Sequence record: OQ031076
From: Shigella phage SFP20
Length of the DNA: 39,499 bases
Reading direction: 5' to 3' (one strand)
Numbering within the stretch: position 1 is the stretch's first letter; each line of letters opens with the position of its first letter. A program made the translations under genes and the position numbers. Below the pieces are notes generated by a model. It was not told the DNA's origin. It searched no databases and was given only the letters and a program-made list of their open reading frames with translations. This document shows, one piece after another, positions 5,448 through 11,632 of this stretch.

Positions 5448-7730
5448 ATGGCTAGTAATATCGAATCAGCTTTAGCTAACCGGACTATGGGCCGTGGTCG
5501 CGCTCCGGGCAAAGCTATCAGTGTAGACTATCAAGCGGCTAACGTTCAGGGGCAGACTGGGGACTCCGGTCTTGCCCGTGCGTTCACCAACTTCGTGGAG
5601 TCCGGCACTGGCCTGTACAAGCAGTTTCAAGAGAAGGCCAAGAACCTTGGGGATGAGCGGTCTAACGAGATTATCCGTAAGCTGACTCCCCAGCAACGGC
5701 GTGAGGCCATCCAGAATGGGACCCTTCTGTATCAGGACGACCCATACGCAATGGAGGCACTGAAGGTCAAGACTGGACGAAACGCTGCCTATGCGGTAGA
5801 CGATGAGATTAACGTCAAGATTCAGAACGGCGAGTTCCGCACCCGTCAGGATATGGAGGAGTATCGCCACCAGCGACTTCAGGATGCCGCTAAGTCCTAC
5901 GCTGATGAGGCTGGTATTAATCCTAATGATGAGCACTTCCAGCGTGGATTTAACGCAGACATCACGGACCGTAACGTAGCCATCTATGGGTCGTTCAATA
6001 AGTATTTCTCTAAGCAGTCCGAGAATACTGCTATGCTGAACACCCGTGTAGAGCTGAACTCGTTCCTGAATGATGGGGACCTGATGCGCTCACCTGAGGC
6101 AGGCAAGTCTTTCATGGCGTACCTTCGCGATGGGCTGACAACTGCCGCCATTCCGTCTGACCAGAGAGCGACTGAAGTTATCTCCCAGACGGTTCGTGAC
6201 GCAATCCAGAAGTCTGGCGGGGCCAACTTCCTACAGCAGATTCGACAAGAGCGCATCACCCTTAACGGAGTGGACGCCACAGTCGAGGAGATTGTCGGGC
6301 CGGAGGTCTTCAACGCCGCTCTGATTGAGGCCCAAGGAACCGAGTACAAGCTGGTGGCTAAGTATCAGGAAGACCTAGCGTTGGGAGTCCAGTCTGCCCT
6401 GCTTCAGGATGACCCGACTATTGGTCTGGCTCAAATCCAGAAACTCAAGGCTCAGAACAACCAGCTCCAGCCGGGTGAGGAGATGACACCACAACGTCAG
6501 ATGCTCATCAATGCTGAGGCCAGCCTCTTAGAGACCGTGAAGCGCAAGTCCGCTGAGCAGGCCAAGGAGAACGTTAAGCTCATCCAGACGCAGAACAAGC
6601 AACTGGTCATCGACCAAGTGTATCAGAGACGACTGGCTGGGGACAACGTGTCCACCAACTATGAGGACCTTCCGGTATCTGAGGCCACTGGTGAGTTCAA
6701 GCGTTCGGACATGAACAACTACGCTATGGGTAAACTCCAGCAGATTGACCAGATGGACATCCCGCAAGCTGCGAAGGATGCTCAGAAGGTGGCACTGCTG
6801 CGGGCTGACACCAACAATGGACCGTTCCGTAATGCCTTCCAGACGCTGACTCAGGATGCTGCTGGTGAGTGGCAGGCTGCGGTAATCCGTGGTCAATACG
6901 ACCCGGACAAGATGCAGCGCTTCGAGGCCCTGCGTAAGGTCTACACTCAGGACCCTTCCAGCTTCGCGGCTCTATACCCTGACCAAGCCCAATTGTTCAC
7001 GACTTTCGAGCAGATGGACAAGATGGGTCTGGACCCTCAGACGATGATTGATGCTGACAAACAGGCTGCAAGCCAGTCCCGTGAGATGCGCATTGAGTCT
7101 GACAAGGCGTGGCAAGAGCTGAAGAACGACTCGAAGAACAAGGACCTCTCGCGGCTCCCGACGAGTCTTGACGCAAGCGCTCGTAAGGTCTGGGACTCAT
7201 GGTATTACCGCACAGGTAACGCCGATGCAGCTACCCAGAACACTCAGAAGTGGCTGAACGAGAACACCGTGACTTTCAGTGATGATGGTCAGGACGGTAA
7301 GTCAATCGGCATGGTGTCCAAGCACCAGCTTATGGTAGGGGATAACCCTGAGTCTTGGCAGGTTGGTCGAGACATTATCGACACAGCCCGCAAGCAGCTC
7401 ATCAAGACTAACCCTTGGGTCGTGAACTCTCAGCTCTCTGTAGTTGAGCAGAACGGCTCGGTCTTCCTGCAAGACGCCACTGGGACCATTCGTATTCGCT
7501 ACGATAAGGAACTGGTTGGTAAACTGTACCGTGAACAGCAGAAACAAGCCGAGGATAAAGCCTACGCTGAAGCTGAACGTAAAGCCAACACCCGCGCTCG
7601 CATTGTCGAGACTAAAGCGGCTGGCGATAAGCGTCGGGCCGAACGTGAAGGTAATATCCAGAAACGCGGTGGTCTGTACAGTGATGTCTCGCTGGAGGGT
7701 ATCGCAAACACCTTAATCGGTAAGGAGTAA
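5448..7730 (+). CDS. 15: internal virion (core) protein C (gp15)
   Basis: 760 aa vs T7 gp15 747 aa; synteny; RBS AGGAGG. Confidence 0.88.
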   Translation: MASNIESALANRTMGRGRAPGKAISVDYQAANVQGQTGDSGLARAFTNFVESGTGLYKQFQEKAKNLGDERSNEIIRKLTPQQRREAIQNGTLLYQDDPYAMEALKVKTGRNAAYAVDDEINVKIQNGEFRTRQDMEEYRHQRLQDAAKSYADEAGINPNDEHFQRGFNADITDRNVAIYGSFNKYFSKQSENTAMLNTRVELNSFLNDGDLMRSPEAGKSFMAYLRDGLTTAAIPSDQRATEVISQTVRDAIQKSGGANFLQQIRQERITLNGVDATVEEIVGPEVFNAALIEAQGTEYKLVAKYQEDLALGVQSALLQDDPTIGLAQIQKLKAQNNQLQPGEEMTPQRQMLINAEASLLETVKRKSAEQAKENVKLIQTQNKQLVIDQVYQRRLAGDNVSTNYEDLPVSEATGEFKRSDMNNYAMGKLQQIDQMDIPQAAKDAQKVALLRADTNNGPFRNAFQTLTQDAAGEWQAAVIRGQYDPDKMQRFEALRKVYTQDPSSFAALYPDQAQLFTTFEQMDKMGLDPQTMIDADKQAASQSREMRIESDKAWQELKNDSKNKDLSRLPTSLDASARKVWDSWYYRTGNADAATQNTQKWLNENTVTFSDDGQDGKSIGMVSKHQLMVGDNPESWQVGRDIIDTARKQLIKTNPWVVNSQLSVVEQNGSVFLQDATGTIRIRYDKELVGKLYREQQKQAEDKAYAEAERKANTRARIVETKAAGDKRRAEREGNIQKRGGLYSDVSLEGIANTLIGKE

Positions 7731-7735
7731 TAACA

Positions 7736-10700
7736 ATGGCGACTCGTGGTATTCGCAACAATAACATCGGGAACATTCGTGTTTCCAAAGACCAGTGGGA
7801 AGGAGCTACAGGAGACGATGGGTCTTTCGTAACGTTCGACACTCCTGACTCTGGCGTCCGCGCTCTGGCGAAGAACCTGATGTCCTACGGTCGCCAAGGC
7901 TACGACTCAATCGAGAAGATTATCAACCGATGGGCACCACCTAGCGAGAACGACACTCAGTCTTACATCGACTCTGTGGTGGCTGCTACTGGCATCCCGG
8001 CGACCCAAAGTATCGACCTGACGAACCCTGATGTCCTCGCCTCTCTGTCTGAGGCTATCGGCTACCACGAGACTGGTTCCCGGTATGACCCTGAGGTCTA
8101 CAAGCTCGGAGTCTCTCGCGCCTTAAGTGGTGCGGGAGGCATCGCCCCAAAGACTCCACCAGTAAGCGCTAACGTCTTCGACGCTCTCACGGAGGGCTTG
8201 AAGGCTAAACCTAAAGTCGCTCTTGGAGAGAACCTTCCGGGCGTTACTGGTATGAACATCGAAGGTCAGGAACCTGAGGCTCCTAACGAGTCTTTCGGAG
8301 AGATGTTCTATAAGTCAACTGGCGAGACGCTGGACCAAAGAGCTGACCGCTCTACATGGTTCGGCTTCGGTGGAGCTGCTGAGGCTGAAGTGAAGAACTC
8401 TCTGGTTGGCGTGGCTGTCCGCGCTGGTCAGACTGAGGACTCACTCGATGTCATTGGCGATGTGTTTAACCCTACCCGCTGGAATAACCACAAGTGGTCC
8501 CGCGAGGAGTTAGACCAGATTCGTAACGCTGGGGTACTCCCTCAGTATTACGGAGTCATCACTGGTGGTTCGCCTCAGAATCTGACCGAGCTGATTAACT
8601 TGGCGCTGGAGAACCAGAAGTTAGACGCTGAGAAGGCTAAGGCCGGGACTGGCGCTCAACTGGCGGCTGGTGTGATTGGTGCTGGCGTGGACCCACTGAC
8701 CTATGTTCCTATTGCCGGACAGGTAGGTAAAGGCGGGAAGCTGGTCAACAAGATGTTCACCGTGGCTGCTCAGTCTGGTGCGTTGGCTGGCGCGTCTGAG
8801 ATTGCTCGTACCTCTGTTGCTGGTGGTGATGCTCACGTTGCCGAGGCAATTATGGGCGGTGCTCTCTTCGGTGGTGGCATGACTGCTATCGGGGACGCTC
8901 TTGGCAAGGTTCTTGGAAAGTCGACCAATGAGTTCGCTGGTCCAGCTACACGTCTTGAGGCACGTGAGACTGCTCGCAACGTTGATGGTCAGGACCTGTC
9001 GCGTCTGCCAATCCGTGAAGGAGAGGAGACCTTCAGTCACCAAGGCGTTAAGTTTGCTGACGTTCCTAACGAGCCGGGAAGTGTGCGACTGGAAGATGGT
9101 TCAATCCTGATTGGCGAGAACCCGCTGAACCCTAAGACACGTCAAGTCTTCGACGAGGTGATTGAGCCTGAACGTGCTGCTGCTGGTGTAAACCTTGGTG
9201 GACTTACCGAGATTGGCTTGAAGCTCTTGAGGTCTGAGAACCCTGAGATTCGCGGACTTGCCGCTGACTTGGTGCGTTCCCCTACAGGTATGCAGTCAGG
9301 TGCGAGCGGGAAGATTGGGACTACAGCGTCAGACGTGTTCGAGCGACTTCGTGCAGTGGACCATCGGTTCTACAACGACATCGACGATGCGGTGACTGAG
9401 GCCCTGAAGGACCCGTACTTCCAGACCAACTTCAACCGTGACACTGGTGCTTTCCGTCAGGACATCTACCAGCGTGTAGCTCTGGCTATCGAGGACGGAA
9501 GTGGGAACCTGAAGTCTGAGCTGACTCCGGGCGAACTGAAGGTCTATGACCTCCTGAAGAACCAGTTTGACGCTAAGCGTGAGATGATGGAGAACCCGGC
9601 GATGTTCGGTCGAGTGGACGCTCAGTCTATCTTCCCCGGTAGCCGCTTCAAGGGGACCTACGTTCCTCATGTTTACAGCAACCAAATGAAGGAACTGTTC
9701 ATCAAGGAGCTGGGAAGCCCTGAGGCGCTACAGGAGGCCATCAAGAAGTCATGGCTCACGAGCTATGCGTCAAGACCTGAGGTCAAAGCGCGGGTGGATG
9801 AGGCCCTGATGGAAGCTGACCCTAATCTGACCCCAGAAGGACTTGCGGCTGCGGTCGATAAGTATGCCAACGATAAGGCTTACGGTATCTCACACACCGA
9901 CATGTTTGAGCGCTCATCCGTCATGGAAGAGAACATCAACGGCCTAGTGGGTCTGGAGAACAACAACTTCCTTGAGGCCCGTAACCTGTTCGATAGTGAT
10001 ATGTCTATCATCCTGCCTAATGGTCAGCCGTTCAACGTGAACAGCCTCCGTGAGTGGGATATGGACAAGATTGTCCCGGCGTACAACCGTCGAGTCAATG
10101 GTGATATTGCTATCATGGCTGGGACCGGGAAGACCACGAAGGAAGTGAAGGATGCAGTAGAGACCATGATGAACCGTGCTGGCGATGATGGGAAGTTGAA
10201 GGCTGAAGTCTCGACCCTGCGTGACACCCTGAAGATTCTGACTGGTCGTGCTCGCCGGGACGGTGCTGACGATGCTGCTTTCTCTACCGTGATGCGGACC
10301 ATGACCGACCTGTCCTTCTTCGCCAAGAATGCCTACATGGGCGTACAGAACTTGACAGAGATTGGTGGGATGCTGGCTCGTGGTAATGTACGTGCAATGC
10401 TGCATGGTATTCCGATGTTCCGTGACCTAGCCTTCCGTAACAAGAAGATGGGTGCATCGGAGATTAAGGACCTGCACAACGTGGTCTTCGGTAAGGAGCT
10501 TGACGACTCCATCCGTCCGTCCAAACAGGATGTCATCGACCGTCTGCGAGCTTACAGTGACCTGAGTAAACCTGTGGCTACTGCTTTGGGTTCCGCCAAG
10601 TATTACACTGGCGAGCTTGCAGTACGCTCCCCGTTTACGAAAGTCCTGAACGGGACGACGAACTATCTGCTGGATGCTGGGCGTCAGGGCTTCTTGTCTG

Positions 10701-11632
10701 ACATCGTGGAACACAGCCTGACCGGAAGCAAGCGTAAGTTTGATGACCGTTGGTTGAAGACCGCTGGTATCTCGGACGAACAGTGGAAGGGCATTAAGTC
10801 CCTCATCCGTGAGTCCGTGACCCGTGGTCCAGACGGGAAGTACACCATCAAGGACAAGAAGGCGTTTAGTCGGGACCCAAGGGCTATGGACCTCTGGCGT
10901 ATGGGTGATGCCATCGCTGACGAGACGCTGCTCCGTCCGCACAAGCTGAGCAACATGGATGCCAAGGCGTATGGACCTCTGGCGAAGACTGTCTTGCAGT
11001 TTAAGAACTTCGTCATCAAGTCCATCAACGGTCGAACCATGCGTACCTTCTACAACGCCACCAAGAACAACCGAGCGATGGACGCTGCACTGTCAACGGT
11101 CATGTCTATGGGTCTGGCTGGAATGTACTACATGGCTCAGGCGCACATCAAGGCTTACGCTATGCAGGACGGTCGTGACAGGGAGTATCTGAAACAAGCC
11201 CTTAACCCGACGATGATTGGCTATGCGGCTCTGTCCCGTAGCTCCCACTTGGGTGGGCCACTTGGGGTAGCCAACATTCTGGGTGGTATCGCTGGGTATG
11301 AGGACACTAAGATGCTCCGCTCGTCAATCCTTCCGCGCTCACCTACCGAGAAACCTGAACGTGCTATTACCTATGGCGCTGCAAAAAGTGACCAGGTGAT
11401 GAACGTGGTCGGTAACTTCCTTGAGCAGGTCCCGGCTTTCGGCTATGCTGCTAACGTTGGCGCTTCGGCTTACAACTTGGCTGGCTACCTGAAGGCTGAT
11501 ACCCGTGTGAATGAACGAGACTACATGACCGGGATGTATAACACTTTCCGCGAGCTGGTCCCTAACGACCCAATCACTCAGAAGCTGCTGTTAGGCACCT
11601 TTGAGGAGCAAGGCATTCACATCAAGGATTAA
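7736..11632 (+). CDS. 16: internal virion (core) protein D (gp16); N-terminal about 200 aa diverges from the T7 lytic-transglycosylase domain
   Basis: 1298 aa; long blocks shared with T7 gp16 (TGGSPQNL, GVIGAGVDPLTYVP, RLEARETARN, RSPTGMQSGASGK, GTYVPHVY, SRPEVKARVDE, ILTGRARR, FFAKNAYMGVQNLTEIGGM, DPRAMDLWR, TFYNATKNNRAMDAALS, ELVPNDP). Confidence 0.95.
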   Translation: MATRGIRNNNIGNIRVSKDQWEGATGDDGSFVTFDTPDSGVRALAKNLMSYGRQGYDSIEKIINRWAPPSENDTQSYIDSVVAATGIPATQSIDLTNPDVLASLSEAIGYHETGSRYDPEVYKLGVSRALSGAGGIAPKTPPVSANVFDALTEGLKAKPKVALGENLPGVTGMNIEGQEPEAPNESFGEMFYKSTGETLDQRADRSTWFGFGGAAEAEVKNSLVGVAVRAGQTEDSLDVIGDVFNPTRWNNHKWSREELDQIRNAGVLPQYYGVITGGSPQNLTELINLALENQKLDAEKAKAGTGAQLAAGVIGAGVDPLTYVPIAGQVGKGGKLVNKMFTVAAQSGALAGASEIARTSVAGGDAHVAEAIMGGALFGGGMTAIGDALGKVLGKSTNEFAGPATRLEARETARNVDGQDLSRLPIREGEETFSHQGVKFADVPNEPGSVRLEDGSILIGENPLNPKTRQVFDEVIEPERAAAGVNLGGLTEIGLKLLRSENPEIRGLAADLVRSPTGMQSGASGKIGTTASDVFERLRAVDHRFYNDIDDAVTEALKDPYFQTNFNRDTGAFRQDIYQRVALAIEDGSGNLKSELTPGELKVYDLLKNQFDAKREMMENPAMFGRVDAQSIFPGSRFKGTYVPHVYSNQMKELFIKELGSPEALQEAIKKSWLTSYASRPEVKARVDEALMEADPNLTPEGLAAAVDKYANDKAYGISHTDMFERSSVMEENINGLVGLENNNFLEARNLFDSDMSIILPNGQPFNVNSLREWDMDKIVPAYNRRVNGDIAIMAGTGKTTKEVKDAVETMMNRAGDDGKLKAEVSTLRDTLKILTGRARRDGADDAAFSTVMRTMTDLSFFAKNAYMGVQNLTEIGGMLARGNVRAMLHGIPMFRDLAFRNKKMGASEIKDLHNVVFGKELDDSIRPSKQDVIDRLRAYSDLSKPVATALGSAKYYTGELAVRSPFTKVLNGTTNYLLDAGRQGFLSDIVEHSLTGSKRKFDDRWLKTAGISDEQWKGIKSLIRESVTRGPDGKYTIKDKKAFSRDPRAMDLWRMGDAIADETLLRPHKLSNMDAKAYGPLAKTVLQFKNFVIKSINGRTMRTFYNATKNNRAMDAALSTVMSMGLAGMYYMAQAHIKAYAMQDGRDREYLKQALNPTMIGYAALSRSSHLGGPLGVANILGGIAGYEDTKMLRSSILPRSPTEKPERAITYGAAKSDQVMNVVGNFLEQVPAFGYAANVGASAYNLAGYLKADTRVNERDYMTGMYNTFRELVPNDPITQKLLLGTFEEQGIHIKD

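What the first reader, a model, noticed from the sequence alone, without database searches (positions are those of the whole stretch)
7736..8400. gp16 N-terminal domain does not resemble the T7 lytic transglycosylase domain
From about residue 220 onward gp16 aligns by eye with T7 gp16, but the first about 200 residues (MATRGIRNNNIGNIRVSKDQWEGATGDDGSFVTFDTPDSGVRALAKNL...) lack the T7 N-terminal features I remember (TESRF ... GLMQ lytic transglycosylase motif). The cell-wall-penetrating module of the ejected core protein may have been exchanged for a different domain.
Basis: inference. Interest (0 to 1): 0.6.

Follow-up and report, generated by a model that had tools for sequence, protein, structure and literature searches.

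The report
Swapped cell-wall enzyme on phage gp16
In this T7-like phage, the injected protein gp16 carries an Enc34/PM2-P5-type wall-cutting enzyme at its tip instead of T7's lytic transglycosylase, which is a real but old module swap shared by a whole phage clade and mislabelled in many database records.

Summary
gp16 (7736..11632, 1298 aa) has no SLT domain. Pfam SLT hits T7 gp16 (E 6e-31) but not this protein, BLASTP homology to T7 (53%) begins only at residue ~120, and a profile-profile comparison of the two N-termini gives 0.2% probability.

It is aa 1-~132 (nt 7736-8131), equivalent to T7 1-156. Residues 133-209 are the diverged homologue of T7's gp15-binding 'molecular tape'.

About 220 sequenced Kayfunavirus-type phages share the domain. 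The gp16 body tree nests this clade among SLT-bearing lineages, so SLT was replaced once. The closest outside copies lie in an ejection-cluster protein of epsilon15-like phages.

Verdict: a new member of a known kind, of modest interest. The practical value is annotation, because many records call this protein a 'lytic transglycosylase' and that is unsupported. The bond it cleaves is untested.

The parts
7736..11632 (+). Gene 16: internal virion / ejection protein gp16 (1298 aa plus stop)
   Evidence: ORF. phrog_342 'internal virion protein with endolysin domain', 1081 bits over aa 6-1296. 53% identity to T7 gp16 over 1194 aa. 96% nt identity to gp16 of Shigella phage SFP21B at the same coordinates.
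7736..8131 (+). N-terminal Enc34 / PM2-P5-type muralytic domain (aa 1-~132), the unit that replaces T7's SLT domain
7754..7780 (+). Family signature motif R7-N-N-N-I-G-N-I-R15 (RNNNPGNIR in most members)
   Evidence: R7, N8, N9, N10 and N13 are invariant in 54 diverse homologues, and P11 is present in >=90% of them. The window has I11 (codon ATC), shared with 9 of 22 IMG/VR clade relatives.
7931..7933 (+). W66 codon (TGG), equivalent to Enc34 Trp79
   Evidence: Invariant in alignment A1. Aligned to Enc34 W80 by ORF index, which the paper numbers Trp79. W in 22 of 23 clade sequences.
7964..7966 (+). Y77 codon (TAC), equivalent to Enc34 Tyr95
   Evidence: Invariant in A1 and in 23 of 23 clade sequences. 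Aligned to Enc34 Y96, the paper's Tyr95.
8069..8071 (+). E112 codon (GAG), predicted catalytic glutamate, equivalent to Enc34 Glu131
   Evidence: Invariant in A1 and in 23 of 23 clade sequences. Aligned to Enc34 E132, the paper's Glu131. The role of Glu131 is taken from PMC8943055.
8132..8362 (+). Linker, homologue of the T7 gp16 'molecular tape' (aa 133-209, equivalent to T7 157-228)
   Evidence: 38% identity to T7 157-228, starting at the shared GGI(A/T)PK motif. The role of T7 157-228 in cementing the gp15 hexamer is from PMC8954989. AF2 pLDDT drops below 50 from aa 135.
8363..11632 (+). Conserved gp16 body (aa 210-1298), T7-like
   Evidence: 55% identity to T7 over aa 210-678 and a continuous alignment to the C-terminus. 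tblastn of aa 221-620 finds 1283 phage records.
5448..7730 (+). Upstream gene 15 (760 aa). Its stop codon is at 7728-7730 and the AAGGAG ribosome-binding site for gene 16 lies at 7722-7727, inside its last codons
   Evidence: ORF sizes match gp15/gp16/gp17 of Citrobacter phage SH4 and Cronobacter phage Dev2. There is no inserted gene between 15 and 16 here, unlike in CR44b.

Best explanation
gp16 of this Kayfunavirus-type phage is a T7-type ejection protein. Its N-terminal enzymatic 'wing' was replaced, once on the stem of the clade, by a complete Enc34-endolysin / PM2-P5-type peptidoglycan-degrading domain (aa 1-~132).

Inferred mechanism, by analogy with T7: gp16 is packaged in the internal core, ejected through the tail after gp14 and gp15, and refolds in the periplasm. 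The N-terminal domain then cuts the glycan strands locally, using E112 as the general acid with W66 and Y77 positioning the substrate. The retained 'tape' segment (aa 133-209) binds gp15 to complete the periplasmic tunnel, and the conserved C-terminal body inserts into the inner membrane.

What is shown here: the domain identity, the fold prediction, conservation of the residue triad, purifying selection, the clade distribution and the direction of the swap. What is inferred: muralytic activity of this particular protein, its role at infection, and the bond it cleaves. The Enc34 authors argue for a GH73-like N-acetylglucosaminidase, which would make this a hydrolase and not a lytic transglycosylase.
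For: No SLT is present, and T7 homology begins at the domain boundary.

W66, Y77 and E112 correspond to Enc34 Trp79, Tyr95 and Glu131. They are invariant in 54 diverse homologues and near-invariant in 23 clade members.

The Enc34 domain lyses outer-membrane-permeabilised E. coli, P. aeruginosa and H. alvei (PMC8943055). PM2 P5 is named a 'structural protein' in NCBI records and is assigned to the same fold with the same triad.

dN/dS of the N-domain is 0.04-0.14, and its GC equals that of the rest of the gene.

Distribution: 217 phage records carry the N-domain at >=80% identity and 220 carry the gp16 body at >=80%, with almost nothing between 60 and 80%.

In the body tree, Kayfunavirus is sister to the SLT-bearing Ningirsuvirus and nested among T7, WX1 and Ghunavirus, with a Wuhanvirus outgroup. 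All of these carry SLT.

gp16 was detected in virions of the 95%-identical phage SH4 by mass spectrometry (PMC4925675).
Against: No enzymatic or genetic data exist for any Kayfunavirus gp16 N-domain in the literature I could search.

The window and its sub-clade carry I11 where >=90% of the family has proline, inside the signature RNNNPGNIR motif. This could alter activity.

The catalytic role of Glu131 in Enc34 rests on structural superposition. No mutagenesis is reported in the sections I read.

Bond specificity is unsettled. The related M4Lys was reported to show both glucosaminidase and endopeptidase activities.

PDB 9VVP, a near-identical full-length 'Gp29', did not appear in the fold searches. 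I could not establish whether it was in those libraries or whether its N-domain is modelled.
Confidence: 0.85

Rival explanations
1. The N-terminus is the same SLT/GH23 domain as in T7, diverged in place beyond recognition. On this view there was no exchange.
For: Both folds belong to the broad lysozyme-like group. The Enc34 authors argue for distant common ancestry with GH23 and GH73. The only stretch hhalign aligned (24 columns) pairs two helices that could be structurally equivalent.
Confidence: 0.02
2. The domain keeps the Enc34 fold but is now a non-catalytic structural 'wing' or peptidoglycan-binding module of the periplasmic tunnel. Cell-wall cutting would be dispensable or done by something else.
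For: In T7 the transglycosylase is needed only under particular conditions. Vibrio phage VP4 gp16 has no N-terminal enzyme domain at all, so a T7-type ejectosome can work without one. The near-invariant P11 is replaced by I in this sub-clade.
Against: The proposed catalytic Glu and both aromatic residues are strictly conserved in the clade, as is the RNNN..N motif. dN/dS is 0.04-0.14. Purely structural retention would not be expected to preserve exactly the active-site residues over a divergence with dS around 1.
Confidence: 0.08
3. The apparent difference is an artefact such as a wrong start codon, an assembly chimera or a frameshift. The real gp16 would have an SLT encoded elsewhere.
For: None found.
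Against: The ORF is continuous, with an AAGGAG ribosome-binding site 8 nt upstream of the ATG and gene 15 ending 5 nt before it. The same architecture is present in 217+ independent phage genomes and in 22 IMG/VR contigs without stop codons. A near-identical 1295-aa protein has been deposited in the PDB as one chain (9VVP_L).
Confidence: 0.01

Closest known systems
Hafnia phage Enc34 endolysin catalytic domain (PDB 7Q47; NCBI family PHA02564; homologue M4Lys of Salmonella phage BSPM4)
   Different: Enc34 is a 242-aa lysis-cassette endolysin with a C-terminal two-helix membrane anchor, and it acts from within at the end of infection. Here the domain is the N-terminus of a 1298-aa ejected virion protein and would act from outside at the start of infection. 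The window has I11 in place of P.
T7 gp16 (internal virion protein D; lytic transglycosylase, catalytic E37; PDB 7K5C, 7EYB, 6YT5)
   Same: The gene position is the same (14-15-16-17). Identity is 53% over 1194 residues. The gp15-binding 'tape' and the C-terminal body are retained. The presumed task is the same: local opening of the cell wall for the ejectosome.
   Different: The enzymatic domain is unrelated. T7 has SLT/GH23 with E37 near the N-terminus, while this protein has the Enc34 type with E112 near the end of the domain. The chemistry probably differs as well (hydrolase against lytic transglycosylase), but that is untested.
Corticovirus PM2 protein P5 and the Autolykiviridae 'peptidoglycan hydrolase'
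   Same: Same domain family with the same W/Y/E triad (bioRxiv 10.1101/2022.07.18.500477). Many standalone homologues of the window domain carry the NCBI name 'structural protein P5'.
   Different: These are small standalone proteins of tailless, membrane-containing phages. They are not fused to an ejection protein.
836-aa ejection-cluster protein of epsilon15-like phages (Uetakevirus: Salmonella phage 66FD, Klebsiella phage BUCT711; phrog_992)
   Same: This is the closest copy outside the clade (51% identity, E 1e-41, triad conserved). It also sits in a large protein encoded next to 'internal virion proteins A/B' in a short-tailed enterobacterial phage.
   Different: The domain is internal (aa 247-378), not N-terminal. 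The carrier protein is unrelated to T7 gp16.

Membership tests
SLT / GH23 lytic transglycosylase domain (Pfam PF01464), as in T7 gp16 | Match to the SLT profile above the gathering score | tested here: not met
   No SLT hit even at E<=1 for aa 1-220 or for the full protein. The positive control, T7 gp16 aa 1-220, gives E 6.3e-31.
SLT / GH23 lytic transglycosylase domain (Pfam PF01464), as in T7 gp16 | Catalytic Glu in the N-terminal E-S motif (T7 W-T-E37-S) followed by the G-L/M-M-Q motif | tested here: not met
   These motifs are present in T7, SNK, Pa7, WX1 and Cornix and absent from the window protein.
SLT / GH23 lytic transglycosylase domain (Pfam PF01464), as in T7 gp16 | Profile-level or fold-level similarity to GH23 domains | tested here: not met
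   [not shown]
Enc34 endolysin / PM2 P5 muralytic domain (PHA02564; PDB 7Q47) | Significant sequence similarity to the crystallised catalytic domain | tested here: met
   phmmer E 3.6e-11 over aa 3-118. BLASTP E 3e-19, 32% identity.
Enc34 endolysin / PM2 P5 muralytic domain (PHA02564; PDB 7Q47) | Mainly helical, permuted lysozyme alpha-lobe fold | tested here: met
   [not shown]
Enc34 endolysin / PM2 P5 muralytic domain (PHA02564; PDB 7Q47) | Conserved Trp79 / Tyr95 / Glu131 active-site triad | tested here: met
   W66, Y77 and E112 align to them with a constant numbering offset. They are invariant in 54 homologues.
Enc34 endolysin / PM2 P5 muralytic domain (PHA02564; PDB 7Q47) | N-terminal R-N-N-N-P-G-N signature | tested here: met
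   R7, N8, N9, N10, G12 and N13 are present. P11 is replaced by I in this sub-clade.
Enc34 endolysin / PM2 P5 muralytic domain (PHA02564; PDB 7Q47) | Peptidoglycan-degrading activity | not testable with these tools
   Shown for the Enc34 domain in turbidity assays (PMC8943055). No data exist for gp16.
T7-type gp16 ejection protein (internal virion protein D; phrog_342) | Full-length homology of the body and C-terminus | tested here: met
   53% identity over 1194 aa to the C-terminus. phrog_342, 1081 bits.
T7-type gp16 ejection protein (internal virion protein D; phrog_342) | Position in the gene 14-15-16-17 cluster | tested here: met
   ORFs of 195, 760, 1298 and 832 aa lie in series. These sizes match gp14-gp17 of SH4 and Dev2.
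T7-type gp16 ejection protein (internal virion protein D; phrog_342) | gp15-binding 'molecular tape' after the enzymatic domain | tested here: met
   Window aa 133-209 align to T7 157-228 at 38% identity. The function is defined in T7 only.
T7-type gp16 ejection protein (internal virion protein D; phrog_342) | Presence in the virion and ejection into the cell | not tested
   Mass spectrometry detected gp16 in virions of the 95%-identical phage SH4 (PMC4925675). Ejection has not been examined in this clade.

The most novel reading that the evidence does not exclude
Kayfunavirus-type phages would breach the cell wall with different chemistry from T7, using a GH73-like N-acetylglucosaminidase-type hydrolase in place of a lytic transglycosylase. 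Such an enzyme cuts the other glycosidic bond, yields no 1,6-anhydro-muropeptides, and (from general knowledge of these enzyme classes) should be indifferent to MurNAc O-acetylation and to inhibitors aimed at lytic transglycosylases. The swap would then be an adaptive change in how the ejectosome copes with particular cell-wall states or host defences. The homing-endonuclease-linked mosaicism seen next to this domain in relatives would be a route by which the module still moves between co-infecting phages.
Probability: 0.3. Interest if true: 0.5.

Novelty: new member of a known kind. Interest (0 to 1): 0.33.

Why it matters
The finding corrects a widespread annotation by transfer. GenBank and RefSeq records for this clade call gp16 a 'peptidoglycan lytic exotransglycosylase', 'transglycosylase' or 'MltF', yet the protein has no SLT domain. 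The VP4-type gp16 is called 'with endolysin domain' and has no N-terminal enzyme domain at all.

It provides a natural three-state experiment for the T7-type ejectosome: an SLT wing, an Enc34-type wing, or no wing, all on an otherwise homologous gp16. That could be used to ask what the enzymatic wing contributes to genome delivery.

It also extends the Enc34/P5 family. That family is known as an endolysin, as the PM2 protein P5 and as a T6SS effector domain, and it now has ejection-protein members in two podophage lineages. This is relevant to mining virion-associated lysins as antibacterials.

The general principle, that muralytic modules are shuffled among ejection proteins, is already established (PMC8954989). 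The conceptual advance is therefore small.

Tried and rejected
- Pfam and NCBIfam gave no family for the N-terminus. Only PHROGs and the PDB sequence search identified it.
- I could not obtain the K1F genome paper (Scholl & Merril 2005), by DOI or by a guessed PMC id. I also could not obtain Moak & Molineux 2004. I therefore cannot exclude that the missing transglycosylase motif in K1F gp16 was noted there.
- Searches for 9VVP, for gp29 with ejectosome, and for Kayfunavirus with gp16 found no paper describing this domain in gp16.
- The word-indexed protein search returned only short standalone homologues and no gp16 proteins. I used it to build the alignment, not to judge distribution.
- I rejected in-place divergence of SLT and an assembly or start-codon artefact.
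- GC content carries no trace of recent import (0.549 for the N-domain against 0.546 for the rest), so composition says nothing about a donor.
- Two Python calls failed because a locus file was stored under another file name. I redid the work with protein comparison and translate.

Full report
**1. What is at the coordinates**

The window is a Kayfunavirus-type (K1F / SH4 / Dev2-like) relative of T7. Its gene 16 is 96% identical in DNA to that of Shigella phage SFP21B at the same coordinates, and 94-95% identical to Citrobacter phage SH4 and Cronobacter phage Dev2. It follows a 760-aa gene 15 that ends at 7730. An AAGGAG ribosome-binding site lies at 7722-7727. ORFs of 195, 760, 1298 and 832 aa in series reproduce the gp14-gp17 sizes tabulated for SH4 and Dev2.

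**2. Checking the observation**

- Pfam finds no SLT domain in aa 1-220 or in the full protein, even at E<=1. NCBIfam finds nothing.
- The positive control works: T7 gp16 aa 1-220 gives SLT PF01464 at E 6.3e-31.
- BLASTP of the two full proteins gives a single alignment of 1194 residues at 53% identity, running from window aa 120 / T7 aa 144 to the C-terminus. Nothing aligns for aa 1-119.
- A profile of this N-domain (54 sequences) compared with a profile of SLT N-termini from four gp16 proteins gives hhalign probability 0.2%.

Only the boundary needs revising. In a multiple alignment, identity to T7 is noise over aa 1-117 and 4 of 13 over aa 118-132. It is 38% over aa 133-209 (T7 157-228) and 55% over the following 470 residues. 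The first convincingly shared motif is GGIAPK in the window against GGITPK in T7. T7 residues 1-156 are the transglycosylase 'wing' of the periplasmic tunnel, and 157-228 are the 'molecular tape' that cements gp15 (PMC8954989). The exchanged unit is thus window aa 1-~132 (nt 7736-8131) against T7 aa 1-156. That is one whole structural domain, with the tape retained.

**3. What the domain is**

- PHROGs shows that aa 2-131 are a module shared with several unrelated large virion-protein families. These carry labels such as 'endolysin', 'head protein', 'tail injection transglycosylase' and 'tape measure', and the module sits at different positions in their profiles.
- A sequence search of the PDB matches aa 3-118 to 7Q47, the catalytic domain of the Hafnia phage Enc34 endolysin, at E 3.6e-11. 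It also finds a near-identical full-length chain, 9VVP_L 'Gp29', for which I found no paper.
- An AlphaFold2 model built on 54 homologues is confident (pLDDT 90.2, pTM 0.84). It is mainly helical and ordered to about aa 131.
- Foldseek against the PDB returns 7Q47 as the only significant hit (E 4e-9, TM 0.81).

The Enc34 paper showed that this domain lyses outer-membrane-permeabilised E. coli, P. aeruginosa and H. alvei. It describes the fold as a helix-order-permuted lysozyme alpha-lobe and names Glu131 as the catalytic residue, with Trp79 and Tyr95 as conserved partners. The authors argue for a GH73-like N-acetylglucosaminidase, though the bond was not determined (PMC8943055).

The window residues W66, Y77 and E112 align to these three positions with a constant offset of one. 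They are invariant across 54 diverse homologues, together with R7, N8, N9, N10, N13, F34, G40, R42, A43, A67, P68, N72 and T74.

The same family includes corticovirus PM2 protein P5, which NCBI-named homologues call a 'structural protein'. It was assigned to this fold with the same triad (bioRxiv 10.1101/2022.07.18.500477). The family also includes the N-terminal domain of a Stenotrophomonas T6SS effector.

**4. Is it functional here?**

I compared 23 clade sequences: the window plus 22 IMG/VR contigs.

- E112 and Y77 are invariant, and W66 is present in 22 of 23.
- Pairwise Nei-Gojobori dN/dS for the N-domain is 0.04-0.14 at dS around 1. The body gives 0.02-0.09. This is strong purifying selection, slightly weaker than on the body.
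- GC content matches the rest of the gene.
- One caveat: the window and 9 of the 22 relatives carry I11 (ATC), where the other 13 and >=90% of the wider family carry proline in the signature motif.

**5. Distribution and direction of the swap**

These are tblastn results against 50,697 phage records.

| Query | Records matched | Identity breakdown |
|---|---|---|
| Window N-domain (aa 1-120) | 761 | 217 at >=80%, 6 at 60-80%, 538 below 60% |
| gp16 body (aa 221-620) | 1283 | 220 at >=80%, 3 at 60-80%, 1060 below 60% |
| T7 SLT N-terminus (aa 1-140) | 1227 | 193 at >=80%, 634 at 60-80%, 400 below 60% |

- The 217 N-domain matches at >=80% are all Kayfunavirus-type gp16 proteins. The 538 matches below 60% lie in other contexts.
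- The Enc34-type wing is therefore co-extensive with one gp16 clade.
- A neighbour-joining tree of the body (444 ungapped columns) places that clade as sister to Ningirsuvirus (Cornix). It is nested with T7 and Yersinia WX1, with Ghunavirus SNK further out and Wuhanvirus Pa7 as outgroup. All of these have the WxES...G(L/M/I)xQF SLT motifs.
- The parsimonious reading is an ancestral SLT, a single replacement on the Kayfunavirus stem, and a loss in Chatterjeevirus. VP4 gp16 starts only ~66 aa before the body and has no Pfam domain there.

**6. Where it may have come from**

- The nearest copies outside the clade among isolated phages are 51-55% identical. They lie at aa 247-378 of an 836-aa protein (phrog_992) encoded directly after 'internal virion proteins A/B' in epsilon15-like Uetakevirus phages of Salmonella and Klebsiella.
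- The same module has therefore been recruited into the ejection apparatus of a second podophage lineage that shares hosts with Kayfunavirus.
- IMG/VR also holds standalone versions of 135-270 aa at 40-50% identity. By eye, the N-termini of two of them (L029, L031) look like signal or lipoprotein leaders.
- I cannot decide the donor without a proper domain phylogeny.

**7. Mechanism**

By analogy with T7 (PMC8954989), gp16 is ejected from the internal core and its N-terminal enzyme opens the peptidoglycan locally. The tape then locks the gp15 hexamer into a periplasmic tunnel, and the C-terminal part enters the inner membrane. Everything from the tape onward is conserved here, and only the cutting tool differs. 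The steps shown in this analysis are domain identity, active-site conservation, selective constraint, and virion presence in a 95%-identical relative by mass spectrometry. The steps inferred are activity, timing and bond specificity.

**8. Novelty and verdict**

The domain family, the carrier protein and the principle that muralytic domains move among ejection proteins are all known. In the searchable literature I found no explicit assignment of the Kayfunavirus gp16 N-terminus to the Enc34/P5 family. Many records label it a lytic transglycosylase by transfer from T7. I rate this a new member of a known kind. It is of modest interest, useful mainly for annotation and as a natural domain-swap system.

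Noticed in passing
L024:1070-1519 (IMG/VR copy of Citrobacter phage CR44b) and the same site in L012. The equivalent window site is 7731-7735, between genes 15 and 16.: A 149-aa HNH endonuclease gene (Pfam HNH_3, E 5e-16) is inserted between gene 15 and gene 16 in some clade members but not in the window. Next to it, the first ~300 nt of gene 16 (the N-domain) are only 66-86% identical to an otherwise 96-99% identical relative (dS 0.99 against 0.07). This looks like a homing-associated co-conversion tract or mosaic joint.
   Followed up: partly
L003:1303-1500 (Vibrio phage VP4, NC_007149.1 gene VVP4_p27): VP4 (Chatterjeevirus) gp16 has only ~66 residues before the conserved body and no detectable enzyme domain. 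RefSeq nevertheless names it 'internal virion protein with endolysin domain'. This is a third state of the gp16 N-terminal slot, namely empty.
   Followed up: partly
window 7766-7768 (codon 11, ATC): In the family signature RNNNPGNIR, the near-invariant proline is isoleucine in the window and in 9 of 22 IMG/VR relatives (the SH4/Dev2-like sub-clade). The other 13 relatives, with the K1F-like P11 form, keep CCT or CCC. The change needs two nucleotide substitutions, and its effect on activity is unknown.
   Followed up: partly
L043:3203-5710 (Salmonella phage 66FD) and L041:3209-5707 (Klebsiella phage BUCT711): Epsilon15-like (Uetakevirus) phages carry the same muralytic module at aa 247-378 of an 836-aa protein in their ejection-protein cluster. 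It is 51% identical to the window domain and is annotated only as 'putative structural protein' or 'hypothetical protein'.
   Followed up: partly
GenBank records hit by window 7736-11632: There are several annotation problems in relatives. gp16 is labelled 'peptidoglycan lytic exotransglycosylase', 'transglycosylase' or 'MltF' despite having no SLT domain. In several Enterobacter phage records (the IJM and MII series) many separate features are annotated under the gp16 match. In Shigella phage ESh23 it is called 'nonfunctional ... due to mutation'.
   Followed up: no
MT350292.1 and MT350293.1: Two records named 'Enterococcus phage EFA-1' and 'EFA-2', with Enterococcus faecalis as host, encode gp16 bodies 94% identical to this window (EFA-1) and 53% identical (EFA-2). 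Such T7-like phages of enterobacteria are unlikely to infect a Gram-positive host, so the host label may be wrong or the sample contaminated.
   Followed up: no
[not shown]
   Followed up: partly
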